Below are positions 12,585 to 54,873 of a stretch of 64,000 bases of DNA, piece by piece. Every line of letters starts with the position of its first letter. Within the stretch, counting starts at the first letter, position 1. Source of the DNA: Pocillopora damicornis. Taxonomy: Eukaryota. Below the pieces are notes generated by a model, which saw only the letters and a program-made list of their open reading frames with translations, was not told the DNA's origin and made no database searches. The stretch covers positions 1 to 64,000 of the forward strand of contig NW_020843862.1 of assembly GCF_003704095.1 (NCBI RefSeq), given 5' to 3'. A program made the translations under genes and the position numbers.

Positions 12585-15500
12585 TCACGACGAGTTCGCA
12601 GTTCTCCGACTGTTATGCAACCTCCTTGCTCTCATCATTCCTTGATATGTCGACATAAATTTATTTCCATATCCGTAAAATTTGGAAGAGCTCCAGTCTC
12701 GACAGTGTTGAGCTGACAGTCTAACTTCTTCATAATTCTTTGGTGTCCGTCTTGTGTATTGAGGTAGAATTTCACTAGCTTCAGCTGATAGCGCCTGTAA
12801 AACAAAAAGTAACACACCGTTAACCCAAACATTTTGATGCAGCTGAGACACAAATACTTGGAAAGTTTGCGTTCAGTCTGAGCCAATAGTCATGAATGCG
12901 TATGAAGCACGAGAAACGCGAGCCAGCGAGGGGTCTGGCACTGATATTGAGACCAGACCCCCAACAAACCTCTCCCCGACTCGTCTCAAATCTTCCCGCA
13001 GGCGAAGAATCGCGCGCCCTTCAGCGCTAATTGAGGGGGCTTGCTCACAGGCTAGGACAATCACTCTGTATTGTAGACTGTTACTTATAGAGTTCAAAAA
13101 AATTCCTGTTTTTCAGGCAAAATTTCACGATGTGAGTTGTTGCTACAAAACAAAGACGACCAAAGTCTTACCTTTAACCAGATCACTGCATCTGTACCAA
13201 AACCTTCCATGGAATAAAGCTGCATATCTCCATCAAAATATCTGGCATAGAGTCTTGATAATGGCAGCCCGTATCCATAGCCGGCCTGGAACGATATAAA
13301 AAACATATCAACAACGGATCTGAGCTGGCTTATCAAGACCCTTATTATTAATTTTCTATAATCTCATTAGCCGTCAATTTGATGCCGTTCCAAAATTGTT
13401 ACGAGGATTCAACTGCCGATCATTTCCAAGAGTAAACATACTTCACCCTATAACCCCCTGGTGATTAAAATATGGTTTTTAAAGTTTTTTCCTCTTAGCC
13501 GACATTTTAAATGAAACTTACGTTTCGGCTGTTTACGACGGTTGTTTATCATTGATAAACACACTTTGAAAGTAATCTTTCATTCCAAAAACAGTGCCCA
13601 AGATTTCGAAGTTCCATTTACTTATTATTCCGTAATCTACTGGTACCTCAAATAGGCGCTTATTTGAGGAAATGCGGTTTTTCAATAACTTCATATCTTG
13701 AAGCGTACATGGTTGTAATTGAAATTTCACATTGTTGGAAATTGTGTGTTTTCTTACCATAGGTGCAGCAGAACCAGCTTTCAGTGGCTCTGGTGCCGAT
13801 GTATAATGATACTCAAACACTTGATCAATTGTACTCTTTGGGATTCCACCTCCTTGATCAGAAATCTAAACAGGCAAAGGGAAAAGAACTCTAAACTTAA
13901 TGACAACAACATTAGGGCATTCTACATAATTGAACTCAAGCATTAAAAAAAGAGTCAAAGTTCGGAAAGCAATGATTAAATCATAATACAGCTTTCATTA
14001 AAAAAAAATAGTTGGACAATCCTATTGCAAGGAATGTCTAGAATTAGTCTTCATCAAAGGTTACTTTCAAATCATGCACATGTATATTCATGAAATAATT
14101 GTACCCGGTGAGAACTGTGTTGATAAAATAAATTGGCTACCATAGAGATTTTTTAAAGCTGATGTTTTGAGAATTAACACTCTCAGTCAGCTCAGACAAA
14201 GGGCCAACTCTCAAAATGTCAACTTAGCCCTTTACTCCCTAACATCAGTAATCATATTCTCCCTACTGTTCTCTGTACATTTACTAAGGTGCTGACAAGG
14301 AGAACTTGTTTAACAATCAAGAGTTTCTTTAGCTGGTGATCATTTCCTTTATTCTCATAACATTAATGTGTGATTCAGTGGTGATATTGTAAAGAGAAAT
14401 TGGATGCTGGTCACTCTTAGGGGTTAGAGGGTAAAGAAACCCCTCACAGCCTAAATTTAAATTATCAATTCAGTTGATAAAACCAAAAAAAGAGAACAAA
14501 AAGTTTGACTGTCAATGTAGGAGCCTTTGAAGAGTTCTCTTTTCTGAAGAGTTTATTACATGACAAGCATGTTTAATGAAGCTAGGCAACATCTAATTAA
14601 TGGCACACAGAAAAAGGAAGTGCTTCAACTTTGTGTGTAATATAAACATCCTTATCTTTCACTAGGAATAAATCAAACAAATCCAAAGTTCGGGAATTGT
14701 AAGTGAGTCTAGGAAACTACATGTAATGCTGAAGGCTGGCAAAATAGGCTGCTGAAACAGAGTTAAATTGATGCTACCTTGATTGTCATGTCATGTCTTC
14801 CTTTGGTTATCATGATCTTTATAGGAGGAACATCAGTACTACTTCCATGTTGTTCCACAACTGCACGCATGGCATTCTTAAATACAGAGCAGTATTGAAT
14901 ATCAGTTTTTTAAGCAATGATTTCTCATTTTTATTGCCATAGGCAGCCCACTTGTTAAAGCACAAAGTTGTATTGCAAACTTGATTAGCTAAGTTCACAC
15001 ACTGAAAAATGAAAAGCATATTTCAAAACCATTTAATGCCACTTTCCCTAATGATCCAGCTCCTTTAATGCAGCCCTACTGGAATATAACCTGGTAAAGG
15101 CTGACAGTTAAAACAAGTATTCTTTGCAAAAAGAATGAGACCTATTTTTGAAATGGTGGTGGATTATTCAACCCAGTGAAACTTTGTCACATTTTAAACA
15201 GTGTGCCAAGAACATACCTTTAATAATTCAAAGAGCATGTGATACAAGTGTCCAGGAACATAGGCCATTTGAATGGGTTTCTTAAGATCAACACCTAAAT
15301 GGAAAAAATAAAACACTGATTTACTTCTTCAACTTGAAAGTCATTACAAGAACAAAAGTAATTGTTACAACAAGGAATTCTGCTATTCTGAAAAAATGTA
15401 CATTTTTTAGAGACAACAAAGCGTTCATGGGGAGTCACAAACTGTATGAAATTAAAAAATAGATTCCATATTGCTATTTGTTGGTTTATTAATAAATCAC

Positions 15501-18500
15501 AGATGGGGTTGATGCAGCCAAGTGTGTCACTGATGTTCCTGCTATATTCTGACCTCTTCTGAGATCTGTTATTGAACAAACCCACAGCAACATGCATGGA
15601 ATCTAACTGTTTTGTTTGATAAAAAATCAAAATGTCGTTAACTGTGATGTCAGCTAAGCATCTGCCCTCCAGTGGTGCATAAGTGGGAACCAATCAAAAT
15701 GTATGTAGGATTCAGTTTATGGTATAGATCTATTTTTGTATAAATGATTGCATGCATTTATGTTAAAAGATAGCTTGAGAGAGGAAAGCTTACCATTAAA
15801 CTCAGAAATTTCCACCTCAGGAGCAGCACAATAATAATGTTCACAGAGGTAGGCAGCATTATTTACAGCATCTAAGAAAATAAGAGGAGGTATTTGATAT
15901 TGAGCATGGTATGACTTTAGACCTATAACTGTGTGCAGAATATTCTACTGACTACATTCCTATGACTGTTGATCCAAACAGGAGTTTGGAGCCTTGGTTT
16001 CTGAGAAAGTAAACAAATCTCAAGGGTAAGGACAAGAATCAACAGAACGTTCCACTCACATGTAATGTCAGGGGTGAAAATTGAACCTACACTACACCAA
16101 TAGATGGCAAGTGCTCTACACACCCCACTATCTGTGTTCACCTACTCTGTGATGGACAAAGATGCTTTAAAACGCAATGCAACAACATCAAGTGTATCAA
16201 ATACCTTCTACCACTGAAGCAACATGACAGGTTGGGTCAAAACAACCAATAAAATTGCTCTTGGAGCTTCTTGCATCTTGACCAAACAGCACCACTAGTA
16301 AATGAAGATACAAGAAAGAGAATGCTAAGGTTACCCTCAGTTTTATTCCAAAAACAGTTATCCCCTTCACTTCCAAGATCTAAACATCATTTCCCTGTAT
16401 GCTCTTCCACATACCGATATTTCTCAAAATCAAGCTTAAAGAATTTGGTGTTAGATCAACTAATATCTCCTTGATGATGTTGTTTTTTTTCTTTCTTCCC
16501 ATCATGAAACTGGTTGAGAAGGTATTGGCATTGAAATGTCTATGTTAAAGGGGGTTTTCAATTTTTCATTACAAATTCTAGTAATTTTATTATTTAAATC
16601 CAACCCAAAACACTTAATTTAACCAAGGTCTTGATTTAAGAGTGCCAATAGCCGGTCTGTTGTGTAATCTATTCACAATACTAGTAAAGATATTGACACA
16701 ATTAAGATCAATTAGAGGCTCCTTGGATCTAGTAGAAAATAATTAAAATTTTTTTATTCTGCTTTTGCAAAGTCGATCAAATCCTAGGTTTTCATAACAC
16801 TGCAACCCCCAAGTTGCAAGTAGGGGGCATAAAGCTCTTGCTTCCCAATTGAAAACTTCCAAACAAGGGCTCACTTAGATTCATATAAATTCAACCAGCA
16901 CCAAGCTTATCAACATCCTCACATGGGGAATACATCAATGCAGAAGGTTTAAAAATTGGAGGGAGTTTAAAACTGATTGAACAAAATACCACTGAAAAAG
17001 AGAAGTCTTGTTGCTAACAAAACTACCCTAAATTGGTTTAGCATGACTACATCATACAATGAGGTAAAAGCAATAAATAAAAGTGTACTTACGATGCTGA
17101 GTGATAAGCATTCGTATACTAATCCGATTCATGTAAAAACGATCTGTCAATAAAAAAACAGGGTGATCTTTAATCAACGGGAATTGAAAAACTATCTGCT
17201 ACCATGCAGAATTCGACCACTACGCTTGCAATTGAAGCAATATTTGGGAAAAATATTTTTACTGACAAAAGGAAATTCATTTTGTCAAGGAGATCAAGAT
17301 AAAGATAGATTTTGTTTGATGGCATGAATTACCTTTCTGCTTTGTGCAGTACCTGAATGAAAGCTAATTTTTTAGTGCTTAAGGAAAAATATTATTTACA
17401 ATATCAGTCTGAAAAAAGAACAAAAATAGCTTTCTTTCAAACACAACAATAAAATGTATGTTTACCTAAAAAGTATTCTATGGATGGATGAAATGCACCA
17501 TCTCCGTCCCTCTCTCTTAATTCCATAATTCCCTGAATTACAAAAAAAATTGAAATGTGATTTGAGCACAACTTTGAAGATGTAAAGGTAAGATATAAAG
17601 GTGGCTTATTCAATTGTTTGGGAAATGAAACTAAAATATAATACAAATGAAAGTTCTAATGAGTTGCACCAGCATAAACAAATACCTGAGCCATTGTCTC
17701 AACAACATTATCATGCCTCTGTTTAATGTGCTTCAGACTTTGGGTATATCTGAAACAAACATGTTAGAAGGCCATTGTTTATTTTCCATGTTCCAGACCT
17801 TGTCAGAAAAGAGTTCTTCAGCTGCTTGTAAAATAGTTCTTTACCACCACACTCCTCTACTAATACAGTGTTCTCCTTTTCAGGCATTAACTGGTAAAAT
17901 TCAATAACTGTTGTGCAATTATTAATGATTAAAATTGCTTGGAATTTATAAAATTTCAACAGGTATAAGGATTGCTCAACTGGTTTAAAATTTTCTTTAA
18001 CCTGTCATGCTTAAAATACGAGAGAACACTGCTTATGACTGCCTCCCAGTTAGCCCAATTGGTTAGAGCGCCGGACTGTTGTGCGGCAGGTCAAGGGTTT
18101 GAGCCCTGGCTGGACCAACACTCAAGGTCTTAAAATGACTGAGGAGAATTTGCTACCTTTCTATAATATCAGGAAATGGATAGACATTCTAGTCTTCTTG
18201 ATAAAGACAAATAAACCATAGGTCCCATCTCCTGCATCTATTGATAATTTGGTTAGGCAGGGGACAATAAAGAACCCACTCATGAGATTACTGTGATGTG
18301 GTCTGGCATGTAAAGTATAGTGTAAAATAGATTGCAGGTCCACATCAGCAACAGCTGCCATTTATTCAACCTGCTTTGCCAAATAAAGGATGTATGTATG
18401 TATGTATATTGCTGACACAACATTACCTATTGGAAACTTCATCTGTTTCTTGTTCATCTTGGAACTCAATTAACTCACTAAAGCTTTGAACATACCTTAA

Positions 18501-21071
18501 ACAGGAAGAAAACAAACAATAAATCAATTCAATAATACATAAATGAATACTAAAAAATTTATTCACAATTAAGGTCCTGATGTAATGAAGCTATAGAGAT
18601 TTGGAAACTTGGGCAAAGTAATGCCTTTCATTAGCTTGCATTTACATGACAATGTTGCCAGATAGCTTTTCCACAAATGAAGACATCTCCTTTAAATATC
18701 TCCTTTAAATGTTCCTCTTGGGCATAGAAAGGGATAAAAATACAAGTTCTCCTTTACAATTTTGGATCAACTCTTTTGAGTTTATGATCAGCTGCTTTAT
18801 CTAGAGAGAGAAACACATTAACAACAATAACTTTGTCTCAAGGGGGAGGCTCTACCTTTCAGAGCTATTGAGAACTTGCCCCAGAGTAGATTGATATAGG
18901 GCAGTTGATATGCACAACGTCAATTTGAAGTACTACATCAAAATAACACAGATTAACCTTTTCACCCTTTTGAGTCACTAGCATTTAATGTCTGCTCACA
19001 AATCACCCCTAAATCACACAATAGGGTCACAAGAACCGAGAGATGATCACGAATTAAAGAAGCTTTAGACTGTTAAGCAAATTCACCATGTCAGCACCAC
19101 TTATAGAGAATATAGATACTAGTGTTTAGGAGTAAAGGTTTAGCACTTACCAGCTTCTAACTAGCTCAACTGAAGGCATCTTAAGCAAATTCTTAGGAAG
19201 AAGATCAATCTCACGAATAATGTGTGCAAGTCGCACAGGTAATTCATGTCGACCAAACTGGAAAGATTCTATGGGTTTTGCGGTTTTGCCTGTAAATGGA
19301 AATAAAACCAAAGATTTATTTCCCCCTTGCAGTTTGACAAAATTTTTAATTTTTATTTTCAGCAACCAAGAGAGGGAAACTTTTCAGATTTCTTAAAATC
19401 AAAAGCACCCATGATGGTGATTAAAGCATAGTGCATGACCCCCAGGAAGACAAAGCATTAAATCCCACTTTTTTTGAAGACAGTTTAATGTGCAAGACTA
19501 CACAGTTTTATTGGTAACTATAGAAAAAAAAAATGTATCCTAACTACATTTAATCTAACTGACTTGCAGTTTAAAAATATTCTTAAGCTATTTCTTTTGC
19601 ATAAAGGACCTCTTGGTTAGCACCTTTTTCAAAAAGGTTTCTCTCTCATAGAGTAATCATGACATTGCAAAATTAACATGTGCAATTTGATATTGTTCCA
19701 TTATTTACACCTTAGTCTCAGATAAATTAACATGCCATTTATCTCTGTGAGTTTGTGTGCCAAATAATAAGGGTTTAAAACATAAAATGGGAAAAACATT
19801 GCACTGATGCACAGAGGAGCTCCACTAATCATCAATAATCATCAAAAGCGTAAGCATTGTTGGATGAGTAAAATCTTGTAGTTTCCTGATAATTGTTTCA
19901 ACAAAACAATTGTATAACTACAAAAAAAAAAAATATTCACAGTATGGAAATTGGGTCTCGATTATTAAAATCTTCGAGTAACTTGTAGATCAGAGAATTT
20001 TTTGACAAGAACTAGTTTTACTGGAATACATCATAAATAAAGCACATAGTTTATACTTAAATTTTAATAATGTTTACAGTGTATGAAAGCCAAAACTTTT
20101 TGTTTTATGGGTAACATTTGTGAGGCAAACTTACTTTTTCAATAACATGGTAAGGAACTGACAATAAAACATTTTGAGGGAATTCACAAAATTATGGCGG
20201 GGCAACTGAGTAAACATTCAAGGTATTGAAACCATGTCAGAAACCAGGTTAAAATGGGAGACCTTTAACGACAGGAGTTATATTGTTGACTGAATTTCAC
20301 ATAAAAACAGATGATGAATCATGATATTCAACCTCCGGACCATCATATGACGTAAAAGTAATCGAAAATCGGATGCGTTTCAAACATAAACACGGAAAAA
20401 AGGGGCATTTTGGGGGTGCCGTCCGCTACGTCAGCAAAGTAAATGACCTTTAAAGTGAAACACGATTTCAGATAAACAGACCCCCCCCCCCCGTAACTTG
20501 ATTTGATGATCAATTCAACGAAAAAAAACCTGAAGCTTTCAAAGCGGAGAATGTATAAATTTCGATCTCTTTAATCTAGAAAGCATGATAAAGGATTGTT
20601 TTTTTACGCGCGAATAAGCGCGCGAAAATATCCATCAACAAAGGTGGGGAAGGGTTAATTAAAAGAAAACGTGTTTGCGAAAAAATCTGGCCGAAGTTGC
20701 ATACAGGCAAAGGTTACCGTAGAGCAGATTTAAAAGCAATTGCGCTGCTAGAGCGAACCAAACAAATGGGAAAAAATGACTCTTACAAAGTAACGTAATT
20801 GATGTAGTTTTTCTGACTGATTGTTTATCTGTGAAAAGGTGTGGAAGAGATCGTAGTATTGAAAATGCGTTTTCATCTCCAAACTGATCCATTCACTTAA
20901 TACCGTTAATTGTTATGAAAAGACGACCTTTACTCCTTAATAAAGAATGGAAAATCTACTGTACTCACCGAAAGTCGTGAATTGCTCAATCGACAAAGAA
21001 GATTGTTGGTATCGACTGAAGCGTTGAATGAGCTTAGCGACATCTTCGCATAAAACTCTCGTGATCCGCAT
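12585..21071 (-). CDS. PDK: Pyruvate dehydrogenase (acetyl-transferring) kinase, mitochondrial; 13 coding exons, 422 aa
   Basis: Exons in transcript order: 21071-20969, 19289-19151, 18495-18427, 17749-17686, 17532-17466, 17143-17093, 16294-16205, 15871-15794, 15294-15218, 14876-14778, 13865-13758, 13285-13172, 12794-12585. All introns are GT-AG with matching phases; total 1269 nt. The translation starts [35 protein letters not shown] and contains [39 protein letters not shown], the N-box [14 protein letters not shown]1 [10 protein letters not shown]2 [18 protein letters not shown], and the C-terminal DW motif typical of PDKs. Confidence 0.96.
14113..14488. mobile_element. Palindromic Penelope-derived repeat interrupted by a nested TTAA-type MITE
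   Basis: The left part 14113-14223 and right part 14435-14488 align to the two arms of the element at 57340-57540. The MITE occupies about 14224-14434. Confidence 0.7.
14224..14434 (-). mobile_element. About 210-bp piggyBac-type MITE (family A), in PDK intron 10
   Basis: Ends are ttagcccttt...agagggtaaa (degenerate TTAA CCCT...AGGG TTAA). The reverse complement matches copies at 18953, 26535, 31716 and 34330. Confidence 0.75.
15448..15606. repeat. Imperfect palindromic (fold-back) MITE-like repeat, PDK intron 8
   Basis: tagattccat.ttgct...aataaatcacagat pairs with atctgttattgaacaaacccacagcaacatgcatggaatcta. Sequence related to the right flank occurs near 22890-22960. Confidence 0.55.
16000..16135 (-). 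mobile_element. Degenerate tRNA-derived SINE fragment, PDK intron 7
   Basis: The reverse strand reads gtgtagagcacttgcc...gtaggttcaattttc...catgtgagtgga, a decayed A/B-box head. Confidence 0.45.
18038..18407 (+). mobile_element. tRNA-derived SINE, antisense in PDK intron 3
   Basis: tRNA-like head with A box (TAGCCCAATTGGTTAGAGCG) and B box (GGTTTGAGCCC), a body ggaccaacactcaaggtcttaaaatgactgaggagaa..., and a 3' aataaagg(atgt)n tail. No proper acceptor stem. Confidence 0.78.
18953..19143 (+). mobile_element. piggyBac-type MITE (family A), PDK intron 2
   Basis: ttaaccttttcaccc...gtaaaggtttag, with internal atcacccctaaatcacac...gatgatcac...aaagaagct matching family A. Confidence 0.7.
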
Positions 21072-23905
21072 GATGAAATGTCCTATTATCCTCTGGTAGA
21101 TAAACTATTTTCCCTCTCCTTTTCGATGCTCATACTTCCTCCCACGGTACCTCAATAGGAATACAAGTGATTCTCAAAACAATTTAGCCATATCAACCTT
21201 TGCTCACTAACCTACAACAAGCGGGCAACAAGTAAGTATATGGAGATTATGTGGATGCGGGGAATGTGTCACATGAGCTTTTTAAACCAATCAGAGTGCA
21301 GATATTGTCCATGACAAGCGTCATGCACGCTCGCCAGTTTTTGAACAGGGGAGGGGTGATGGGTATATTTTTGTTGTTCTTCATATTTGACACAATGAAA
21401 TACTCTATATAGCACAATACAGAACGATACAATTTCTTTCTCAAATATATTGAAATCTTAACAGATAAAATTCTGCCTTACAATTTGCAAGAAACCGACG
21501 AGCAAAAACGTACAGAGAAGTATACGACTCTAACGACTGACTACCACCCGGTCAGGAGACTGTCACGATCAGTCAAGACACCGGTCTGGTATATCACGTT
21601 TTGCTGGAATTTCACTCGAATAACGCCAATGGCTCTCTTTATTTGAGAGTTTGCCACAGGCTGTATCCCTTTCTCAGTTATCGCATCCACACCTTGATAA
21701 TAATAATAATAATAATATACTAATGATTACATCTTTAGCCAAGGTGAACCCGTCAGCAATATTGGTGATATCAGTGGGTGCCCTAGTAACCTGACTTTCT
21801 CAAAATCGAGTATTTTTATGATAACGTTTGCAATTTCTGCTCTTGGTGTGGGTGAAGCAAGTCTTGCATCATCCTTCAAAGGTGACGACAAACCTTTCGC
21901 CGGTGTGACATAAACTGTTTTGGCCCCAGTCCTTTTGCGATTTATTTTCTTCTATGTACTTAGAGAAAGTTAGTTAAAACAAATGCCTATAATCGTATCA
22001 GCCTGCTCACTTATAAAAGTGAAAATGATATCATTTGAAATTTTATGGCTTTTACTACAGATCAAAATAAAATGAGCAGACTGTGTACAATGGCCGAAAA
22101 TACCCCTACGTGTCCAAAACACACTCTTCAATATGTATACTTCTAAACAAAACGAAACGAACCAAAGAATCGAAGCGAAGAGAAAAATTGAAGCAGTTGC
22201 TAAAATAAAAATACAAATTATAAGTTACTACAATTATATGTAAACAAATTGAAAAACGTAAAAACAAAATAAAAGATAATAAAGACACTCACAAACGTTG
22301 TACGAGATTCTGGGACGACTTGCTGAGTTACTGGTTAAGGACGGTATAGAGCGAATTAAAGCGACTGAGAAAAATGATCCATCACAGTTCAACGATAAAC
22401 CCGAATAAATAAAATTTACGGTAATGAACTTATACGAATGTTACAATCAAAGGGAATTTATGCGTTAAAAAAAATGCACGTGAAAATAAAAAAATCTTGA
22501 TGAACGCGCGACGGAAAGAAAAAAGACGAATTTATAATGAATGACGTCAATAAATAATTTTTGTCGGCAACACTTTGTATTTCCCCTGCTGCCGTCAATG
22601 TTCCATTAAGCTGGCGATCCTTCTAAGTCAATCGACTCATGTTGAAAGAAGGTTTTAATGTGGCTATGAGTCATCTTCAAAAATTTAGTTCACTTCAAGA
22701 GCTCTCCTCTTTGGTTTCTGATTTAGCAGTTAGTTGCCAGGGGCCTCTCCCGTGGGAGGCGAGACTTTAGCCCGTCCTTACACTGTGATCTTCATGATAT
22801 CTCTAGCCCACAAGTGGCACATCAAAACTTTATTCAGTAAAACACTATCATTTATAGAGTTTTACTGAAAAAATGAACAAAAGTACGACGTGGAATCTCT
22901 TTGTTTTATATCATAAAAAGACAAAAGAAAATGTCGATGGTGAAGTCACTGTATGCGTCATCGATATCCGCTCCATCCTCGGAGACCCCGGGGCTGTGAG
23001 TCGATTTCAAGTCAGGGCGGAAGAGCCCCTGGGGACATTGTCCTACAAGACTAGTTCCAAACGGTCACAGTCGTTCTGGTATCTGATTGATGCCAGAAAA
23101 TCTTTGTGTTTTTCTGCCCAATCAGAGTGAAGTATGGTTTAAAGTCCTCTCGTGTGTTTTAACACGGAGATGTACAAGAAGTTCAGTTGCTCGCCTTGTT
23201 TGTTTACGCCGTGCGACGAAGCTTTGCTCGAGGTGAAAAGTTTCAGTCTCAGCACACAATGTAAGAGAAATCGATCAGATTGTACGCAAAAATCTTACAA
23301 TAAATTATACTGAATACTTTTGCAGGTATCACAAGAGAACGTATTTAAAAGTTTACGAGGTCCGTATAAAACATAATGGTTGCATGCGTTAATATGTCGC
23401 TTTAAACGTTAGACGAGATGTAAGCTTAAATCGGTCTAGATTTCTCGTATAATTTGCTGTGACTGAAACTTTGCCAATCCCGTGAAGTTATTTCGTCGCA
23501 TGGGCCACGCAGGTACGTCGAGCAACTGGCGCTTACGCTTACGTTGCTTTCTGTGAACGCCAAAATCAAATCTCCTTCGACTAGTTGTTTAGGGAAGGTT
23601 CAGGGTTTTTTTTTTACGATGAGTGGGAATAATCCGAGTGAAAATGTTTTTCCTTTTTTCGCGAGCGTCTAAAAACTGCCAGGACACCAAAAACCCAGAA
23701 TTGTACAATCAGTAAATTTATGCAGGTATTGCGGACCTATTTTCCTTCGAACTATTTCGGATTAGTTCGGAAAGCATTCGCTGTCACTCGTAAGTAGACG
23801 ATGACGTAGTAAGAACCTAAGTTTCATTAGGGTATTAGTCGTAGACAGCTGAAGGAGGTCTACTTTGATATTTGCGTAACATGTAGTTGTTTTCTTTTTT
23901 TCCAA
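21072..23905. promoter_or_regulatory. Divergent (head-to-head) intergenic region between PDK and WDSUB1
   Basis: The start codons point away from each other 2.8 kb apart. CpG is visibly retained here compared with the flanking gene bodies. No specific promoter element was assigned. Confidence 0.55.
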
Positions 23906-26376: not shown

Positions 26377-26425
<49 letters not shown>

Positions 26426-30195: not shown

Positions 30196-30463
30196 GTTGG
30201 CACAGTTTCTGGTTTTTAATTACGTTTTCTTCTTAGTTGGAAACGTGGTAGCCCCGTGGTTATGTAACTTGTTTCTGGATGTAAGGACAAGGGTTTGAAC
30301 CTTGGCCGGGTTACTTAGCTTTTTTCAGAGGGTGGGTTGGGCAAACCGTTAGGGAAATTTGATGAAATGTGAGAGGGGGGAGCTCTCTTTCTGATGGTGG
30401 AGATCAATATTAAGTGATTTCTGAAATATAGTTCCGAGTGAACTGGCTAAAACGTTTTTTTTT

Positions 30464-30563
30464 NNNNNNNNNNNNNNNNNNNNNNNNNNNNNNNNNNNNN
30501 NNNNNNNNNNNNNNNNNNNNNNNNNNNNNNNNNNNNNNNNNNNNNNNNNNNNNNNNNNNNNNN
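30464..30563. other. Assembly gap (100 N), probably hiding the WDSUB1 terminal exon
   Basis: Run of N downstream of the last visible U-box exon. Confidence 1.
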
Positions 30564-31647
30564 TTGGTGCCGTTGTTGAAATGTTTCGTTTTGAAATACG
30601 CAGTTGTTGACAATATTTTTTTGTGCGAAACATTACTTTGTTTTTGAGTCATGAAGTCTGTGAGAATGAGCAACCACCATCAGGAAAAAAAATGCCGCGC
30701 TTGAGTCAAGTATGTTGGTAAAGGAGGAGGAGGAGGAATTTGCCATTGTTTAATTACCTATATCAACTTTGTATCGAAACACGGTCAGTTTGGCCACTCT
30801 TGATTTCATCAAAATATATAATCTACAACCTGGCGATGCGGCAGTTCGACTTACACTGGGGCCCCGTTAACTTGAATTTGGTCGACGCGAAGCCTCTTTG
30901 TAACTCGAACAAGATCCGATTTCCCTTGACCCATTTTTTCAGTCATTTTTCCTTAACAAACTCGAACCCCACTAGCTTGAACCTTTTTTCGCTTTCCTTT
31001 GAAGGACTAGTTTGCAGGGTTCTACTGTATCGCGTTTGGTGTTTTTTTCCCGTTTTTGTTGCCGTTATTTTAAGCATTGCGCCACTGTTATATCGGTTGT
31101 CTCTATTTATGTTCCACCTTCAACTGGTTAACTTTCGGTTTCTAAATTACCAAAATAAACAAGTAGTGCATCACCAAATTCTTTAGCTTTTTGCATTCAG
31201 TTCGTCATGACCAATTTCCATAAATCTCGGATCATGTCATGAGGTGCACAAATGTTTCATCGATTTTTAAACTCGATTAAAAATGACTGTGCTAGGAGGT
31301 AAAAAGTTGAAGAGGAATGAATTAAAACTTTGAATCTTCTGACCAGTATCTAATTTCTCCTTACATTATCACTCTGAATCAAACACAGAGGTCTTGTGGG
31401 TAATTTGTGTGTAAATTTTTGATAGGTTGGTTTCGCACGGATATGAAAGTTGTAACTTTCACAAAGTATCATCACTGCTTGACTCCAGCCTAGATAAAGT
31501 ACTGCGAGAAGTTTTTTTATTTATATATATATTGAATGAGCAGCAGTTTCTTATGGCCAACATTGCTTGATTTTGGCCCTTGTAAAGTACAGCTCTTCAT
31601 GAAAATGTTCTCTAATTATTTATTAAAAATTATCAGTCACAGTGACT

Positions 31648-32051
31648 CAACTCTGTTACTCCTGACAGTGACTCGCATCTACTTTCTCCTTACAAAAACA
31701 TCCCTGAATCACACATTAACCCTTATGAGTGACCAACATTTAATTTCTCCTCACAACATCACCCCTGAATCACACATTAAGGTCATGAGAATAAAGGAGA
31801 TGATCACCAACTTAAGAAGCTCTTGATTGTCATACAAATTCTCCTTGTCAGAACCCTAGGAAATGTCTAGGGAGTAGTATGGAGAATATGCATACTGATG
31901 TTGGGGAGTTAAGTGTTAAGGTCACGGGAGTAAAGGAAATGATCACCAACTCAGAGAAGCTCTTGATTGTTAAACAGATTCTCCTTGTCGGTGCCTCAAG
32001 AAATGTATGCAGATCAGTATGGAGAATATGCATGCTGATGTAAAGGATTAA
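31648..32051 (+). mobile_element. Tandem cluster of partial and complete family A MITEs
   Basis: A partial 5' piece (about 31648-31715), a near-complete copy (31716-31918) and a repeated 3' half (about 31916-32051). gatcaccaact...agaagctcttgattgt and agtatggagaatatgcat each occur twice. Confidence 0.8.
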
Positions 32052-33479: not shown

Positions 33480-36400
33480 TCAGAGCGACGTTACTGTTCT
33501 ATACTGTCCATTGATCTCTTGTGATTTCTGGCCATTGAGTCTTTGACTGCTGTCTCTTCGTTTTGGAGGATCTGGTTTTGTTGGATGACCACTGTTCGTG
33601 TGCACTCCACTGGTGTTCTTTGGCTCATCTTGCTTAGGAGGCTCTATCACCCAATGGATAACATTTTTAGCATCCTTCTTTCGCTTTGCCTCCTCATCAG
33701 TCGCCATCAATCTACTCAGAAGTCGCTCCTCTGCGATCTTTAATCGTTCGTTTTGATTCTCGTCATATGACAATCTCTTTGTCATTCCTTTGTACGGCGG
33801 GCTTCGCGGATTGCCAACGGTCAAATGGTCGGAATCGCCGGAACTTTCCGAGCATGAATCGGAAAAAGGCAGCGAAGTGTCCGATGATTTATCGGAACCG
33901 GCCCGATGTCTGTCAAAATCTGAGCGGTGGAAATTGGTTGGCAAAGTGTAAAAATGCCTTTCCCTAAATTCGCCTTCGGAAGTTTTTATTGCGGCAATGT
34001 CGGACTGTGATCGTGGCCTTATTTCGGCAATCTCTGGTTTTCGTAACGTGTCGCTTCGATACGAATCACGTTTCTGGTATTCGGGTCTTTTCGGGACATC
34101 CGTGGCTGAGCGCCGTCTGGGTAGGTCTGGAACTGTTAGTCTGGAAAGAGTGGATGTGACGTCATCAGTAGAGGACCTTATTGATGACGGAGGAGAATCA
34201 TCACTTTTTAATGACGAGACTGTGGATTAAACAAACGTAAACATCAAAATTATTTTCTTCGTTAAAAACTAAATTCACGCAATAACATTAGAAGTACTGT
34301 ACAGAATTTTCCTATCTCCTAGACACTGTTTTAGCACTGAAACCCGTGAGAGTGACCAGAATCTCATTTCTGATTACAATATCGACACTGCGTCAAACAT
34401 TAAGGTCATGAGATTAAATGGTACGACCACCAACTAAAGAACTTCTTGATTGATAAACACATTTTCCTTTTCGGTACAGAAGGAATTGAACTGAGAACAG
34501 AGTGGAATATATGCATACCGATGCTGGGGTGTAAAGGGGTAAGACCTACAAAAGGAATGGGACCAATCATGAAAACATGAAAAAACATTATCACGGCCAC
34601 TGACATTGAAGACACTGAATAATAGGAAAAGTTTGCTATGATTCATTCCGCGATGTGATTGCTTTCTTTGACTTTTTTAATCATTCCCTGACACAAGAGA
34701 CATTTTGTTCATGAAAATGAACTATCGCAGCATGGCAGAGTAAATTTCATTTTCCGTGAGGAATTTTGTGTCTAATGAAAGTGCGTTTCGTTCAGTAACG
34801 GAAGCAGGAAAACACGACGAAAGAATGAGATTGAAGAGCGGTGAAATGCGCTTCCTATTTACTCTTTACCACACAGGTCATGTGTGACAGTGTATCCGTA
34901 AACAAACTATGGTAAGCATTGTCTTAACACCTGCTCAATGGACAAAACTTTCAAGAATATTATTTCAATTGTTCCATAAACACGCGGTTACAAGCACAAC
35001 GAAAACCAAAACACTCTCATGACACTCTTATGAGGAGACATCTCTACTTGATCAAATCTCTGCGTTCTAAAAATTCCACTAAAGTTCTCTGTCTCTCCTA
35101 CATTCCCGAAGAATCTTGAAGTTACCATGGACACCTTTTAAACCCCCCCATAAGAGCCCATCAACGGTAGCATAAACCCTGGCAATTGAGCAGAAACTTA
35201 TCTATATCTACAGCTGTCATTTGACCCCCTACTGAACGGCCGACAATTCGATTCCAGTTAGATAGCGGTTTATCGTTCTCGCGATAATTTTATTATCATA
35301 ACATCAGAAATGTGTGTTTTAGCTATCAAGCAATATCTTGTGAAAATATTCCTCGAACAAAAATATGCATAGCTCTTGTTCTGTTATCTTCAAAACATAA
35401 TATGGGAGCCAGAAATCAATACTATCGTCAACGATCGATCACCTAACATCGACATAGAGGTCACGAAACTTACTTGTACTTCGTCCCAATGGACTCGAAG
35501 CTCTTTCAACGCTTTTCCAAAACTGGTCTGAGAGATTTTCCAGTGATTTATGATAATTCTGCACGGTCCTGTTCCTCTGCTTGAAATCTTTGACGTCTGT
35601 ATTTTCTGTTGGCGTAATAAAAGTGATATTAAGCTTTTGTAAACACGTCATGAATGAAACGGTTCGTGAATATTGTTTGGAGCAGTTGGTAAAAGTTATA
35701 TTTATAAATTTTGCACGTCTCGCAATAAATTGCGTTTGCTGCTCAGGAACAGTCTTTTGAAACATGAAAAACTAAGTCCCAAACAGAAGTTGTAACCGTA
35801 TACATTCGCTTTGAAGTTGATACAGTAACCGGCTATCAGAATAGATCATTGAAATTCGTACTTCTTGATTTAAACTTTATTACTCTACATATGAATAATC
35901 CGAGCCAGCAAAGTAATCCATTGGAAACAAGACACGTTAGCTCTCTACTGAGTCAAACTGACGTATCTTTACAATCTGACTTGAAGAACTGTGTCCTTGA
36001 AAAGAAAAAAAAACACAGCGCATACTGAGGCTTCGAACGTGATGGAATATAAACTATGCGAGAAGGAAATATAAAAACACGATATTCGGAGTTGAAGGCT
36101 CTTGTTAGGAAGATTTTAGTAGTTGATTTCTCGGAATACTGAGTGAGATCCAAAGTGTTTTGCTTTTTTTTTTAAACGATCTAAGCAGTCACGCTACTTG
36201 TGTAAGTCGCAGAGTTTCACTCACAAATATTCAGTCCCCGGAAAGAGATCGAATCAGAGTACACGAAAACGGATTAAGACTGTTGAATGAAACAGGATTT
36301 ATGGTGTTATCTCCATTGGGACTCAGTCAAGTCTTCTTATTTCGTTTAAAACCATAAAACCGTCAGCTTTCGATCTCCACGAGACCACAAGATCACTAGG

Positions 36401-39400
36401 AAGTAGTTTTAAACAATAAGATAAAAGGCGAGGTTTCTTTGTGGTACTGATAAGATCCACTGTCTTAAAATTCCGTCAGGCAATCCATGTAAATTCAATC
36501 GCTAAAGAATGGAGTTAGTAGCGGAATAGTTTAATAGCGCGTATTACTGAACCGAAAGAAGATCAATCAGTTGACTGACAAAACTCACCCGTAGCGTGAG
36601 GGTCATATCTGTATAGAGACCTGAAGTAGTTATCTGTAGTAAAGAAAACACAACAACATTAATGCTTTCAATATATAGCACAACATTACAATACATAGAG
36701 GTAGTAATTTCGTGTGTAAAATCACTTCACAAACTCAGCAAAGAATAACCTTGAATAACTCTAGCTCTGACAACGGAAGGCTTCGCAACAAACGTGTTAC
36801 CCTTCTCGGGAAACTTCGGTTTGACTCTCTTAAACTTCAACATAATTCAACCTTAGTTGCTTCTATCACCATCATTTAACGTTAACAATGTCTGTTTGTC
36901 GCTTTTGAACCGCTGCAACACTACTACAAACACATCAGGTTTCCTTTCGCCATTTTAGTATATCACCATAAACGATTCCACAACCAGTTTCCGTTCGCTC
37001 GTACGTGGTGACAAACTGTTTCGCGGATTGTCTCACAGCCAGAGAACAACTTGATCGCAATACTGCAACAATGAGATGCAATTGACTAGTGAACCGAAGC
37101 AATCTTCCTAATCCAGCGCGCGATTTCAGAATTTTGCATAGAAGTGTAAAGACGTGATATCAATCGACCGTGGGCGTGTACGATAAGTAATTTGTTGCCC
37201 TAGGAAGTCACATAAACTGTCGGTGTGCGAATTTGATTTATCCACTGCCGTTCTTTGGTAGTTAAAATACACCCGACATTCCGTAATACAGATGTAACAA
37301 TAAGTCGCCTCGTCATAGCCAACACCAATATTAATGGGCTTTTGACTACGCTAAACAAATTACATCTAATTATGCCTAATTATGCGGTTTGCTCCTTTTA
37401 AAGCAATCAAAAGGCACGGTTCGTTTACATTCCTGAGGCTAAGGACGGAAGTTTTTTAGGTTATTAGCACGGGGTCTTAAAATGTCAAACTGATAAATGT
37501 TTTTGTTGTTCTTTGCTTCTATTTCTTGTAAGGGAGTTTGTTTTTGAATTTCTACACAGCTTCTTGGCTTGTTAAACCGTGGGAATAACTGAAGCCACAA
37601 ACAGCGCATTGTTTATTCAACAGTAGGATGCTGTTTGAGTTCGTCCTTCAACTCGTCAGTCACGAGAGGCCCCCTCAAAAGCTAAGGGATAGCGGTAGAC
37701 AGGGAGGGAGTTCTGAACTTGGACAAACTTCTTCCCACAGAAGAAACGCCTTTCCGTTTCGATACCGAGACAGGAATGGCTTAACTGGTGCGTTTGCTAA
37801 AACAACTAGGCTAAAACCTTTTTTTATCATACAAACAATAGATCCTGTTGTTTTTTTCGTTTCCTTATTGTTCTGGCGCTTTCTTTCTTTGCGGTTTCGG
37901 GTTTGCCGCCTTTTCATTGACGACCGTATGCAGAACAAAAATAGCAAAAAGCAATTTCCTGCCATAAATAATATCGATAGGCTTCAATTTCTCGGAATAA
38001 TGCCTAAAAATAAACCAATACCCCCTAAACTTTTGTGTTAACAGTAAAAGGATATAGTTTGTTGAACTTTGATATAAAGCTTTGGCGAAAAAATTAGGCA
38101 CACGCTCTTAAAATTGAATGAATCAACGCAATCAAAAATGCCGCTTTTTTTTTAGCAAGGAGCGAATTGTCGTGAATTTGAAGGATTAAATTAAGCCCGA
38201 AGAAAATCGGATTTAGCCATCAAGTTTAACTGGTAAAATATTGTAGATTCAGTAAAGTTACACACAAAATTTTTATCCGCTTGCGTCAACATATATTACG
38301 TAAGTTTGGTATCAAAACTCGTTTTACCTGTTCTGAAGCCACGAGCAGGCAAGGTGGCCGCGCGTTCCTTGTGTATCTCACTGAGGTCTGGGTGTGAGAG
38401 CGAACTCTGATCCTTGCTGAGGTTCCCGGATGAGAGAGTGTTGCTTGACACGCTTAAGGATTCCTCAGAACCAGAGCTACCAGCGTGGAATGAACTGGCA
38501 CGTGACTTGGGGTCTTGTGGAAGCTCTACATTAAAATGGAGGAGTTTGAGTTCTAGTAAAGTTACAATTAGTAATTCATATGAGCGGAATAGTTATTTTT
38601 TTTTATAAAATTTCCGCTTGTCTCTTTTTTTCTTAATTTGCATGAACCATGTCCGTGGATCAACAAGTCAAGAGCTCTTGAAGGCTACTTACATTTGTTA
38701 CTTGTGACAAAAATTAATTAGAGTACAGCTCACGATCATTGCTAAATTACAATAGAGAATTTCTGGCAACGAAGCCACAAAAAGCAAAATTTCAGAACTG
38801 TTAAACCATGTGCGCATGCAACTATGAACATACAGCGTGTGCTTAATTAGAAATTTAACGTTCAAAGTTCAGAATCTGTTCTCTACGAAATCTTGTCGTG
38901 GGCGTCTTTAGTGGACCATAGATTATAGGCTTGAGCGGTTTTTTCTGCAAGGCATCTTTAACTGCACGAAAACCGTTTCATTTGCTAAAAAATCGTTTTC
39001 AATTCTTCCGATCCCTAGAACTAGATGTCGACTCTCCCGTCTCTCTGTTCAATGTTTCTTGTAGTTTTAGCTCTGGAAAGCCGCTGTTTAATCAGACAAT
39101 TTCCGTGGTTTACATTCTTCTTTATTTGTGTCAACTGTCTGCCTTACAATGTACTAATATTGAAGGGAAGACATTTCTTTTCAGTCACCCTTGGGAGTGA
39201 CGAGTATGATATATATTATGTTTACTGAGTTAAAAAAATCGTTTGGAGAAATATGCTTGCGTTGTAGCACGCTTCTAAAATTGCCCTCTCTTGAGTAACT
39301 AGTGACCCGCTGTGAATTTCCTCGAACCATGACACGAACGTGCTGCAACTTCTGCATTTAACAAAAACTCTGTTGGTGAAAAAACTACAAACTATTTAAC

Positions 39401-41335
39401 GAAATCGCCTCCTCCATGTGGACAAGCTTTGGACACTTACAGACACGCCGCAGTTTTTGGAATTTTACTTGCTCTTCATACAGAATAAGAAGGAACTGGA
39501 AGATCTTTCCATTTATTGTTTCTAGGCTTAAATTTGAATTTATGTTAAGATTTGACAGCTAATAATTAAACAAGTTACGGAATTGTCATCGCAACTATTT
39601 CGGAATTATTTTGATCTGCCACTAAATTTACAAACGGAACAATGTTAAGGAAGTCATACAACTGTCTCCAAGGTAACGGAGGTGCATGTTTTGATAAGAG
39701 AAGATTATGCCATGGGTAATTAGCTCTGAAAACTCTCAAGACTGGATACTCATTTTCGCTATAACATCCGGAAACCTCAACAAACAACATGGATTACACG
39801 AAATTGACATTTACTGAGCTCGATAATTCTACTTGCACAGTCATAAGCTACTTGGTGTTTTGTTACGCTATGAAAATATGACGAATATTAATTATTAATA
39901 CTAATTAAATAGCAAAGGCCGATGAGCGAGATCATTCACTTGTTTTCGTCGTCTGCGTTAGCAGACGTTTTAAAATCCTTTTAAGGAATCAACTAGAAGT
40001 CGTCCACCGGCCGTTTCGTTTCATATTCTTGGTTTGAAAAGCCTTTTCGAATAATCTCCTACTGTATTATGAAACTCTCGTTTCAAGACTCGCGTCTGTA
40101 GGTACAAAGTCACTCATCGCGTGCCGGAGATTTGGCTGTTAGTCAATTGAAACAGCGATTCATGAATCCAACCACGTCTTTCGTGGTGATCACAGTCTGC
40201 CGCTGAACCGAACACTTCTGAAAGAGGAAGTTAAACTGTCTACTATGGCCAGTTTGCGAGCTATACTTCTCCAACTGATTGTTCCAAATTTGTTTTTGTG
40301 GTTTAAAGTTTACGCAAAACAATTAAATGACTCGTGGGGCATAAAGTTTTCAACGGGGAATGTCACGTAATGTTTTGAAGCCACAGACACTTTTTCTTCC
40401 TTGGCGAGCTCGCTTTAGTTCTGTAAGACAGCTTATCGTGCAATACAAGGTTCCAGTCGTCATTAAAAGTTTTAAAAATTTTCCATAACACACCTAAACA
40501 ATATCGGACTGTAAACTTCCAAATCGAGAATGCAAAATATGCCACTTGTTCTTTTCAGTACTCAACTTTCTCCTAACAAAGCGCTTTTTGACTCTAGTAG
40601 TTTCAATGCGTTATCACAGAGCCTAACGTTTATATACTGCTTTGCACACACAACGACAAGAACTCTTTCTAATTTATTGGTAGGACGAATAACAACTCAG
40701 TAATAAATATGTAATAAAACGGCTGATTAACCAAGACTTATACAACTGTTGTTGCAAAGCTGTGTTGTATTGAAATCGACTATGACAGCGACACTCTACA
40801 GTTCTCAGTCAGTTGAGCGCATAGTCTCGCTTGTTTCGTGTTTGGAATTTTTTAAGTTTGTAAACAAATTACTCAAAACAGTAAGCTTAAGCTAGAAATT
40901 CAGGGAGATTTTAGCGAAATTTTTGGCCAAGGAATAACTGGATGTCTATGGCTCTAGATTAATTGTCCAAACTTCTGTTCCGCTCTTCTGTTACAACCTT
41001 CTGTAAAACTTAGGCCCAAGATAAGCTTAGTAACTTTGTAACTGTGCGTAACAACTGAGTATTCCCACTGATGGAAGTCTCTCCTTGCGAAGGCTGACTC
41101 ATTGAAACTGTGCTCGTATTTTAGAATCAACAGCCGGTAACTTAAACGTATTTACAACCGAGTACTTACTTTGACACAAAGGGCACGGTTTATCCACAAA
41201 AAGACACGAGTAACATCGCGGATGACCACAAGTGTCGATCAGTCGCCTCTTGTGCGCACTGTCGTATCTCTCTCCGCAGTCAGGACAAGTGATAAACTTG
41301 GGTGAAGACCACTGATTATCCATAACTGTAGGCAT
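33480..41335 (-). CDS. RING-finger protein with TANC/rolling-pebbles-like N-terminal C3HC4 RING, disordered Ser/Arg-rich body and C-terminal PDZ-binding motif (about 426 aa)
   Basis: Exons: 41335-41170 (MPTVMDNQWSSPKFITCPDCGERYDSAHKRRLIDTCGHPRCYSCLFVDKPCPLCQ); 38525-38328 (alternative in-frame acceptor at 38552); 36633-36589 (DNYFRSLYRYDPHAT); 35605-35474 (ENTDVKDFKQRNRTVQNYHKSLENLSDQFWKSVERASSPLGRST); 34219-33480 (ends YRTVTSL*). All introns are phase 1 GT-AG and the frame is open over 1281 nt. Further small exons cannot be excluded. Confidence 0.82.
34330..34542 (+). mobile_element. piggyBac-type MITE (family A), last intron of the RING gene
   Basis: gagtgaccag...acattaaggtcatgaga...caccaactaaagaacttcttgattg...atatgcataccgatgctggggtgtaaaggggtaa. 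Confidence 0.72.
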
Positions 41336-54385: not shown

Positions 54386-54873
54386 TCAGTCAGTCAGTTA
54401 GTCCGTCAATAAGTCAGTCAGTCAGTCAGTCATTCAGTCAGTCAGTCAGTCAGTCAGTTAGTCAGTCAGTCAGTCAGTCGGTCGGTCAGTCAGTCAGTCA
54501 TTCGGTCAGTTAGTCAGTCAGTCAGTCGGTCGGCCAGTCAGTCAGTCAGTTAGTCCGTCAATCAGTCAGTCAGTCATTCAGTCATTCAGTCAGTTAGTCA
54601 GTCAGTCGGTCAGTCGGTCAGTCAGTCAGTCAGTCATTCGGTCAGTCAGTCAGTCAGTCAGTCGGTCGGCCAGTCAGTCAGCCAGTCAGTCAGTCAGTCA
54701 GTTGGTCAGTCGGTCAGTTGGTCAGTCCGTCAGTCAGTCGGTCAGTCGGTCAGTCAGTCGGTCAGTTGGTCAGTGAGTCAGCCAGTCAGCCAGTTAGTCA
54801 GTTGGTCAGTCCGTCAATCAGTTAGTCAGTCAGTGAATCAGTGAATCAGTGAATCAGTGAATCAGTGAATCAG
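54386..54873. repeat. Long imperfect (CAGT)n microsatellite ending in (CAGTGAAT)n
   Basis: Directly visible. Confidence 0.98.

What the first reader, a model, noticed from the sequence alone, without database searches (positions are those of the whole stretch)
12585..41335. Possible deep microsynteny: WDSUB1 tail-to-tail with a TANC-like gene, with PDK alongside
Seen: WDSUB1 (+) and the TANC-like RING gene (-) are adjacent and convergent, and PDK is head-to-head with WDSUB1. Known, recalled and not checked: human TANC1 and WDSUB1 are adjacent convergent neighbours at 2q24, PDK1 is on 2q31, and TANC2 and PDK2 are both on 17q. Inference: the WDSUB1-TANC pair may be a gene adjacency conserved since the cnidarian-bilaterian ancestor. 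That would independently support orthology of the short RING gene to TANC despite its different architecture.
Basis: partly seen in the sequence, partly recalled or inferred. Interest (0 to 1): 0.72.

Follow-up and report, generated by a model that had tools for sequence, protein, structure and literature searches.

The report
Coral mini-TANC gene beside WDSUB1
This coral has a short, expressed gene lying tail-to-tail with WDSUB1 that carries only a TANC-type zinc finger and a TANC-like tail; it is likely the sea-anemone-and-coral counterpart of the human synapse scaffold TANC1, which is also WDSUB1's neighbour, so the pairing is likely older than the split between corals and bilaterally symmetric animals.

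Summary
The layout is real: PDK (−), WDSUB1 (+) and a five-exon 426-aa RING gene (−), all spliced in RNA contigs. The RING is the rols/TANC type: reciprocal best hit, one tree group with TANC RINGs, same phase-1 donor behind it. The gene lacks NTPase, ankyrin and TPR; I found no TANC body in the genome. It ends in a class I PDZ-ligand motif like many TANCs. Accession proxies put it beside WDSUB1 in Pocilloporidae, Porites and the octocoral Xenia; a published block lists the Nematostella pair in successive rows. TANC1–WDSUB1 are neighbours in human, mouse and sturgeon. Against: different scaffolds in Branchiostoma belcheri and Acropora digitifera; no invertebrate bilaterian shown to keep the pair; the same RING occurs in hemichordate C2H2 proteins; human orientation only recalled. 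PDK linkage looks cnidarian, not deeper. Verdict: ancestral adjacency about 0.65; a probable TANC orthologue that fails TANC's architecture test. The scan had not noted this pair elsewhere.

The parts
12585..21071 (-). PDK (pyruvate dehydrogenase kinase family), 13 coding exons, 422 aa; RNA contigs extend to about 11700 and 21525
   Evidence: Pfam; RNA joints; model
21072..23905 (.). Head-to-head interval between the PDK and WDSUB1 start codons (2,835 bp ATG to ATG)
23906..24500 (+). WDSUB1 first coding exon, WD40 repeats
   Evidence: (99-100% identical to Pocillopora WDSUB1 records)
26889..29064 (+). WDSUB1 middle exons (about 26889-26941, 27375-27408, 27870-27910, 28590-28690, 28988-29064); some residues lost in the N gap 26787-26886
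29322..29493 (+). WDSUB1 SAM-domain exon
   Evidence: Pfam SAM_2 E 8e-12; joints
30061..30196 (+). WDSUB1 exon with the start of the U-box; the last coding exon is not in the window (probably in the N gap 30464-30563)
   Evidence: Pfam U-box E 5e-8
30600..31645 (+). Probable WDSUB1 3' UTR (approximate; contigs cannot show strand or end)
   Evidence: RNA contig pieces
32552..33479 (-). 3' UTR of the RING gene (approximate end)
   Evidence: contigs read through the stop codon; AATAAA near 32580 seen
33480..34219 (-). RING gene exon 5: long Ser/Arg-rich, probably disordered tail and stop codon
33483..33494 (-). C-terminal V-T-S-L, a class I PDZ-ligand motif
35474..35605 (-). RING gene exon 4 (holds the family-conserved Y.KSLENL motif)
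36589..36633 (-). RING gene exon 3 (holds part of the family-conserved FR.D.YFRSLYRY motif)
36750..36843 (-). Coding part of an alternative first exon giving a RING-less 336-aa isoform
   Evidence: proteins P0020, P0023, P0035, P0045; window frame and donor; RNA contigs end at 36750 in 4 of 4 runs
38328..38525 (-). RING gene exon 2
41170..41335 (-). RING gene first coding exon; C3HC4 RING at 41287-41174, phase-1 donor one codon after the last Cys

Best explanation
The window holds PDK, WDSUB1 and, tail-to-tail with WDSUB1, an expressed 426-aa gene made of a rols/TANC-type RING, a long low-complexity linker and a PDZ-ligand-like end; it is likely the anthozoan orthologue of TANC, and its adjacency to WDSUB1 is likely inherited from the cnidarian-bilaterian ancestor. 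Shown: gene structure, RING type, absence of NTPase/ankyrin/TPR in the gene, and no detectable TANC body in the genome. Inferred history: the gene has the two ends of an invertebrate TANC without the middle. I slightly favour (about 55:45) loss of the NTPase-ANK-TPR exon block in anthozoans over its gain in bilaterians. All four introns are phase 1, which would allow either event in frame. Vertebrates then likely lost the RING while keeping the address. Inferred function: a PDZ-anchored RING E3 ligase or adaptor at membranes or junctions. The tail would dock on Dlg/Scribble-type scaffolds, the RING would recruit an E2, and the RING-less isoform would act as a pure adaptor. The pair likely persists by inertia across a short convergent gap, not by strict co-regulation, since several lineages appear to have broken it.
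For: RING type: a profile of 9 anthozoan proteins against 1.84 billion proteins gave 289 hits at E<=0.001. All 6 of the 150 listed hits longer than 1,400 aa carry AAA_lid_TANC1, HTH_TANC1 and ankyrins, and 5 of 6 are named TANC2 or TANC2-like, the sixth through its cluster members. Reciprocal test: a fragment with the B. belcheri TANC RING finds the window at 53 bits and the next locus at 22.9. The coral RING has the same 38-aa spacing and 21-24 identities with 6 TANC RINGs. Tree: anthozoan, TANC, Ptychodera and unplaced RINGs are split from 20 other coral RINGs at 95/91. A phase-1 donor follows the RING in corals and in 10 of 18 distinct non-anthozoan locus types (7 show no donor, 1 is a phase-0 match inside a continuous ORF). 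Tail: class I PDZ motif in 7 of 9 anthozoan representatives and 4 of 6 named TANCs, against 0 of 112 and 1 of 120 control proteins and 2-4% expected from composition; vertebrate TANCs end in such a motif (PMC5533708). Adjacency proxy: of 15 anthozoan species with both records (the near-identical P. damicornis record left out), 6 have accessions 1-8 apart, including Stylophora and the octocoral Xenia (consecutive), and 3 more share a sub-megabase scaffold. In Robert et al. 2022 block 411 the Nematostella RING gene EDO37593 and WDSUB1 are successive rows. Vertebrates: human order, mouse 6.2 kb apart, sturgeon neighbouring windows. Crude chance: 0.05-0.2% per pair with orientation, or 4-16 chance pairs per genome, against at least 378 real eumetazoan pairs (PMC3514665).
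Against: B. belcheri TANC and WDSUB1 are on different scaffolds, and no invertebrate bilaterian was shown to keep the pair. A. digitifera splits them, and 5 other acroporids have them on one chromosome with distant or non-comparable accessions. In Exaiptasia five block rows lie between them, and Aurelia shows no RING-gene row. The bilaterian rows of block 411 hold only KMT2 and wit, so its 'Planulozoa novel' label does not cover this pair. Outside the RING and the last three residues there is no similarity to TANC N-termini (HMM E>=0.04, hhalign probability 0.1%). The same RING sits in Ptychodera C2H2 zinc-finger proteins, which, with up to four RING copies, outrank the TANCs; one scores 24 of 38 against the coral. 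So the module moves between genes. The PDZ motif is absent in Actinia and Nematostella records, present in only 1 of 6 metagenome TANC ORFs, and also ends the downstream ORF at the coral ANKRD50-like locus. Accession order is only a proxy. Human orientation is recalled.
Confidence: 0.62

Rival explanations
1. The short gene is the ancestral form. TANC/rols arose in the bilaterian stem when an ANKRD50-like NTPase-ankyrin(-TPR) cassette was joined to this RING gene at the WDSUB1 locus. The adjacency is still ancestral; only the polarity differs. This is counted inside the best explanation's 45% share.
For: Short form in Scleractinia, Actiniaria and Octocorallia. The coral has an intact NTPase-ANK gene on another contig as a possible donor lineage. 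No TANC body was found in the genome. Phase-1 introns throughout.
Against: TANC cores are 43-54% alike across bilaterians but only 25-30% to the best coral gene, which suggests an old split from ANKRD50. A Hydra gene was matched to rolling pebbles/TANC2 in PMC7541080 (its domain content not seen).
Confidence: 0.28
2. The RING gene shares its RING with TANC by descent, but the adjacency in corals and vertebrates is convergent: both genes stayed on one ancestral chromosome and became neighbours twice.
For: Broken in B. belcheri and A. digitifera, rearranged in Exaiptasia. Only two lineages show it. A genome-wide scan would meet 4-16 such chance pairs. Convergent pairs are not the enriched class among conserved pairs (PMC3514665).
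Against: Chance per pair is about 0.1%. The pair is old within both lineages (hexacorals plus an octocoral; fish plus mammals).
Confidence: 0.25
3. The short gene is not a TANC orthologue. It is an anthozoan gene that picked up the TANC-type RING exon by shuffling, as the Ptychodera C2H2 proteins did, and true TANC was lost or is hidden in assembly gaps.
For: Same RING in C2H2 proteins. The RING exon appears skippable in frame in Acropora (P0036). No similarity in the linker. 47 columns cannot separate orthology from shuffling. The genome is in 4,393 pieces.
Against: It needs both the WDSUB1 neighbourhood and the PDZ tail to be coincidences. The RING is single-copy in the genome.
Confidence: 0.13

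Closest known systems
TANC/rolling pebbles family (Drosophila Rols7; invertebrate 'TANC2-like'; vertebrate TANC1/TANC2)
   Same: N-terminal 38-aa C3HC4 RING of the same type with a phase-1 donor behind it; C-terminal class I PDZ-ligand motif; neighbour of WDSUB1 like vertebrate TANC1.
   Different: 426 aa against 1,400-2,000; no STAND NTPase, ankyrin or TPR; linker not alignable. It keeps the part that is dispensable for Rols7 rescue in flies (PMC2171639) and lacks the parts that are essential there.
Conserved ancestral microsyntenic pairs (CAMPs, Irimia et al. 2012, PMC3514665)
   Same: Two unrelated genes tightly linked in cnidarians and vertebrates, with a short intergenic gap.
   Different: Seen here in two major lineages, not the four required; 3'-3', not the enriched 5'-5' class. 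I could not read their gene list.
Microsyntenic block 411 of Robert et al. 2022 (PMC8851819, supplementary file 4)
   Same: Lists the Nematostella and Exaiptasia RING genes (OG0012091) with WDSUB1, and the PDK orthogroup with WDSUB1 in Exaiptasia and Aurelia.
   Different: Does not name the gene TANC ('tanc' 0 hits in the stored part; the Nematostella row is annotated only 'Ankyrin repeats'). Its bilaterian rows are KMT2 and wit only. The KMT2-type FYRC and SMAD MH2 hits of this genome are on other contigs.
ANKRD50-like NTPase-ankyrin gene (G000:C1689)
   Same: Best match in this genome to the TANC NTPase core; a downstream ORF ends in a PDZ-type motif.
   Different: HTH_TANC1 110 bits against 177-210 for TANCs; 25-30% identity; no TANC RING or TPR match there. 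The name ANKRD50 is recalled, not from a call.

Membership tests
TANC/rols | STAND P-loop NTPase with AAA lid and winged helix | tested here: not met
   No Pfam family at E<=1e-5 in the 426-aa protein; transcripts pass the stop into UTR
TANC/rols | Ankyrin repeats | tested here: not met
TANC/rols | TPR repeats | tested here: not met
   None in the gene; best genome match to a TANC TPR E 0.003, 29%
TANC/rols | rols-type N-terminal RING (invertebrate members) | tested here: met
   but shared with Ptychodera C2H2 proteins
TANC/rols | C-terminal class I PDZ-binding motif | tested here: met
   Motif present, 7 of 9 anthozoan representatives; binding not tested
TANC/rols | Nesting inside the TANC clade | tested here: inconclusive
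   Beside, not inside, the 98/93 bilaterian clade; 47 columns
CAMP (Irimia 2012) | Non-paralogous genes with at most four intervening genes | tested here: met
   No gene between them in the window; mouse table lists them successively
CAMP (Irimia 2012) | Conserved in at least four major lineages | tested here: inconclusive
   Cnidarians and vertebrates yes; B. belcheri no; no other lineage could be matched
CAMP (Irimia 2012) | Conserved orientation | not testable with these tools
   Strand not given; convergent orientation in human is recalled
WDSUB1 | WD40 + SAM + U-box in one gene | tested here: met
PDK | BCDHK_Adom3 + HATPase_c kinase | tested here: met
   (HATPase_c under cut-off on one exon); PDK versus BCKDK not tested by tree; the Exaiptasia neighbour of WDSUB1 is named PDK2
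RING-HC E3 ligase | C3HC4 ligand pattern | tested here: met
   Eight ligands invariant; nearest solved RINGs RNF4, TRIM32, Roquin at E 2e-5 to 8e-4
RING-HC E3 ligase | Ubiquitin ligase activity | not testable with these tools
   Needs an assay

The most novel reading that the evidence does not exclude
The synaptic and myoblast-fusion scaffold TANC/rols was built in the bilaterian stem by inserting an ANKRD50-like NTPase-ankyrin-TPR cassette into a small RING-plus-PDZ-ligand gene that still survives in corals and anemones next to WDSUB1. Vertebrates later dropped the RING, so human TANC1 and the coral gene are orthologues at the same genomic address with no alignable domain left in common.
Probability: 0.28. 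Interest if true: 0.66.

Novelty: new variant of a known kind. Interest (0 to 1): 0.46.

Why it matters
One more cnidarian-vertebrate gene pair is ordinary: hundreds are known (PMC3514665). What is less ordinary is that the pair exposes a hidden orthologue. Databases call this anthozoan family 'uncharacterized', and a TANC family study sampled no cnidarian (PMC5533708). If the reading holds, a neurodevelopmental-disease scaffold family has three architectures: RING+tail in anthozoans, complete in invertebrate bilaterians, RING-less in vertebrates. One look at medusozoan, placozoan and sponge genomes would decide whether TANC is a bilaterian assembly or an anthozoan reduction. It also gives a natural setting, testable in Nematostella, for the function of the rols RING, which was dispensable in fly fusion rescue.

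Tried and rejected
1. A longer TANC gene with WDSUB1 and PDK nested in an intron: rejected; contigs read through the stop into UTR, and TANC body searches did not hit this contig. 2. A split TANC with the body elsewhere: best candidate C1689 is far less TANC-like than TANCs are to each other; the searches are exon-wise and score only top candidates, so a gap-hidden gene is not excluded. 3. Block 411 as proof of deep WDSUB1-TANC synteny: rejected, bilaterian rows lack both genes. 4. RING-less isoform as a parallel of Rols6: the passages read do not say that Rols6 lacks the RING; dropped. 5. Similarity between the linker and TANC N-termini: none. 6. A 'G followed by K/E/M' proxy for the intron after the RING (35 of 103 fragments) was too loose and was replaced by DNA. 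7. AlphaFold2 model: mean pLDDT 43.6, 353 of 430 residues under 50, RING not confidently folded; no fold search run. 8. Atlas searches gave generic RING and fungal NACHT clusters only. 9. Protostome adjacency: the cluster I took for Crassostrea WDSUB1 was Saccostrea, and P0327 was Lingula with no WDSUB1 match; no protostome pair could be compared. 10. None of the 13 metagenome loci tested (of 41) showed WDSUB1; most are too short to reach it. 11. Supplements of PMC8809688, PMC10719294, PMC11175523 and PMC7269912 gave no hit for the gene names; those of PMC3514665 could not be read. 12. The first WDSUB1 search was swamped by bacterial WD40 proteins. No complex was predicted.
Full report
What is in the window. 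The DNA is from a Pocillopora coral by protein identity. Three genes fill 12585-41335 as described. PDK runs on the minus strand from 21071 to 12585 in 13 coding exons, 422 aa; RNA contigs join its introns. WDSUB1 starts at 23906 on the plus strand, 2,835 bp from the PDK start, and has WD40, SAM and U-box matches. Its last coding exon is missing, probably in the N gap at 30464-30563. The third gene runs on the minus strand from 41335 to 33480 in five exons, all introns GT-AG and phase 1, 426 aa. All four introns are joined in 4 of 4 RNA runs from four studies, and contigs pass the stop into about 0.9 kb of UTR. The gene is therefore short in fact, not by annotation error, and converges on WDSUB1 across about 1-2 kb.

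The short gene as a family. A search with the first exon gave 14 proteins among 18 candidates, none longer than 496 aa; the named ones are stony corals, anemones and octocorals. The alignment of nine shows a near-invariant RING and two short motifs in an otherwise variable, Ser/Arg-rich sequence. AlphaFold2 gave no confident fold (mean pLDDT 43.6). An alternative first exon at 36843-36750 gives a RING-less isoform, also seen in three coral clusters.

Is it TANC-related? A profile of the nine was run against 1.84 billion proteins: 289 hits, 150 listed. All six listed hits over 1,400 aa have the TANC NTPase lid, winged helix and ankyrins and come from amphioxus, oyster, crayfish, sea spider and two insects. 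The highest non-anthozoan scores, however, were Ptychodera C2H2-type proteins with repeated copies of the same RING. In reverse, the amphioxus RING finds only this locus strongly, 53 bits against 22.9. In a 47-column tree of 50 RINGs, the anthozoan, TANC, Ptychodera and unplaced RINGs are separated from 20 other coral RINGs at 95/91. Bilaterian TANCs form a 98/93 clade with the anthozoans (94/88) outside it; 12 of 32 outgroup loci had no complete RING and were left out. In 41 metagenome loci, a phase-1 donor follows the RING in corals and in 10 of 18 distinct non-anthozoan types, and 8 loci show a TANC NTPase downstream. The short proteins end in a class I PDZ-ligand motif in 7 of 9 representatives, as do 4 of 6 named TANCs but only 1 of 6 metagenome TANC ORFs; controls gave 0 of 112 and 1 of 120. 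Between RING and tail nothing aligns to TANC.

Is there a TANC body elsewhere? Searches of the genome with HTH_TANC1, AAA_lid_TANC1 and a TANC N-terminal protein all rank contig C1689 first. That gene scores 110 bits where TANCs score 177-210, is 25-30% identical to TANC cores that are 43-54% identical to each other, and looks like ANKRD50 (recalled). A TANC TPR query found nothing better than E 0.003. The assembly is fragmented and only top candidates are scored, so this is good but not final evidence of absence.

Synteny. No eukaryote genomes other than the window's own could be read, so I used accession order and scaffold length as proxies. Of 15 anthozoan species with both genes, leaving out the near-identical P. 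damicornis record: 6 have accessions 1-8 apart (Stylophora, P. verrucosa, P. meandrina, Porites harrisoni, P. lutea, Xenia); 3 share a sub-megabase scaffold (P. lobata, Actinia, Nematostella); 5 acroporids share only a chromosome; and A. digitifera has them on different scaffolds. Supplementary file 4 of Robert et al. 2022 (stored copy cut at 4 MB) lists the Nematostella RING gene and WDSUB1 in successive rows of block 411, the Exaiptasia pair with five rows between, and WDSUB1 beside the PDK orthogroup in Exaiptasia and Aurelia. The bilaterian rows of that block contain only KMT2 and wit. In vertebrates TANC1 and WDSUB1 are neighbours in human, mouse (6.2 kb) and sturgeon; the strands are not given there, and I recall them as convergent. 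In B. belcheri the genes are on different scaffolds. No protostome pair could be matched.

Weighing. If both genes stayed on one ancestral chromosome, chance adjacency with matching orientation is about 0.05-0.2% per pair, or 4-16 pairs per genome, on assumed group sizes. At least 378 real pairs date to the eumetazoan ancestor (PMC3514665). That favours inheritance; the amphioxus break pulls it back. I put ancestral adjacency at about 0.65 and orthology to TANC at about 0.8. By architecture the gene is not a TANC family member: three defining domains were tested and not met. By descent it probably is the same gene.

How it likely works (inferred). A C3HC4 RING, a disordered linker with short conserved motifs and a PDZ-ligand end fit a scaffold-anchored E3 ligase or adaptor. 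Vertebrate TANCs bind PSD-95, SAP97 and SCRIB through such an end (PMC5533708). In flies the RING can be deleted from Rols7 without loss of rescue, while ankyrin and TPR regions are needed (PMC2171639), so the anthozoan protein cannot be doing the Rols fusion job. Polarity is open. The deep divergence of TANC from the ANKRD50-like gene and a Hydra gene matched to rolling pebbles (PMC7541080) lean towards anthozoan loss; the uniform short form across Anthozoa leans towards bilaterian assembly.

What is in print. Searches for WDSUB1+TANC1 (10 papers listed, none on deep synteny by title or abstract), WDSUB1+synteny (1, tilapia BRD genes), TANC2+Nematostella+ortholog+postsynaptic (0), TANC family phylogeny and searches showed no description of this gene or pair. 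The library lacks most subscription papers. Seen: passages of PMC3128111, PMC8192126, PMC8805411, PMC2171639, PMC11395957, PMC4232600, PMC7541080; passages and section 16 of PMC5533708; abstract and first third of Results of PMC3514665, whose pair list I could not see and which may bear on novelty; passages and supplement searches of PMC8851819; supplement searches only of PMC8809688, PMC10719294, PMC11175523, PMC7269912. That vertebrate TANCs lack the RING rests on 'ring' having 0 hits in PMC5533708, its description of a disordered N-terminus, and recall. One earlier scan note concerned alternative first exons of an arthropod TANC gene; none concerned this pair.

Verdict. Observation confirmed; interpretation partly supported. 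A probable ancient gene pair, ordinary as such, that points to an undescribed reduced or primordial form of TANC in anthozoans. Interest 0.46; new variant of a known kind.

Noticed in passing
window 36843-36750 (-): Alternative first exon giving a RING-less isoform; the same N-terminus (MLKFKRVK...) occurs in unnamed transcript-derived proteins of the clusters that hold Stylophora/Pocillopora, Montipora and Acropora records.
   Followed up: partly
P0194, P0197, P0313 (Ptychodera flava records): The TANC-type RING occurs in tandem copies in hemichordate proteins with C2H2 zinc fingers, an apparent case of module shuffling.
   Followed up: partly
window 12585-30196: PDK next to WDSUB1 is also seen in Exaiptasia (successive rows) and Aurelia (Seg1718.3 and .4, the latter in the PDK orthogroup though annotated RCC1), so it is probably a cnidarian-wide pair.
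   Followed up: partly
G000:C1689:174188-179948 (L009): NTPase-ankyrin gene that looks like ANKRD50 (recalled), head-to-head with a USP35/38-like gene (recalled); a downstream ORF ends in E-T-K-I, a PDZ-type end.
   Followed up: partly
G000:C3883, C824, C1698, C3384, C2883, C4004, C2911: An expanded set of long single-ORF STAND NTPase genes weakly matching HTH_TANC1 (26-68 bits), often in pairs on one contig.
   Followed up: no
window about 28300-28510, 31350-32050, 14150-14470: A dispersed repeat with very high contig depth in RNA runs lies in WDSUB1 and PDK introns and in the gap between the convergent 3' ends.
   Followed up: no
Acropora muricata records: Two WDSUB1 records on one chromosome (XP_067020426, XP_067023268), and split WDSUB1 models in A. 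millepora, suggest rearrangement or duplication where the pair seems broken.
   Followed up: no
P0209, P0211, P0248, L066, L067: Unplaced TANC-type RINGs from unnamed contigs fall outside both the anthozoan and the bilaterian TANC clades; they could be medusozoan or other key outgroups.
   Followed up: partly
window 54462-54844 and 60103-60858 (+): A simple tetranucleotide-type repeat giving SVSQ-rich frames, and an unexamined 251-aa open frame.
   Followed up: no
window 17093: RNA contigs of 4 of 4 runs carry a different base at the last position of a PDK exon, which makes that joint look non-canonical in the table.
   Followed up: partly
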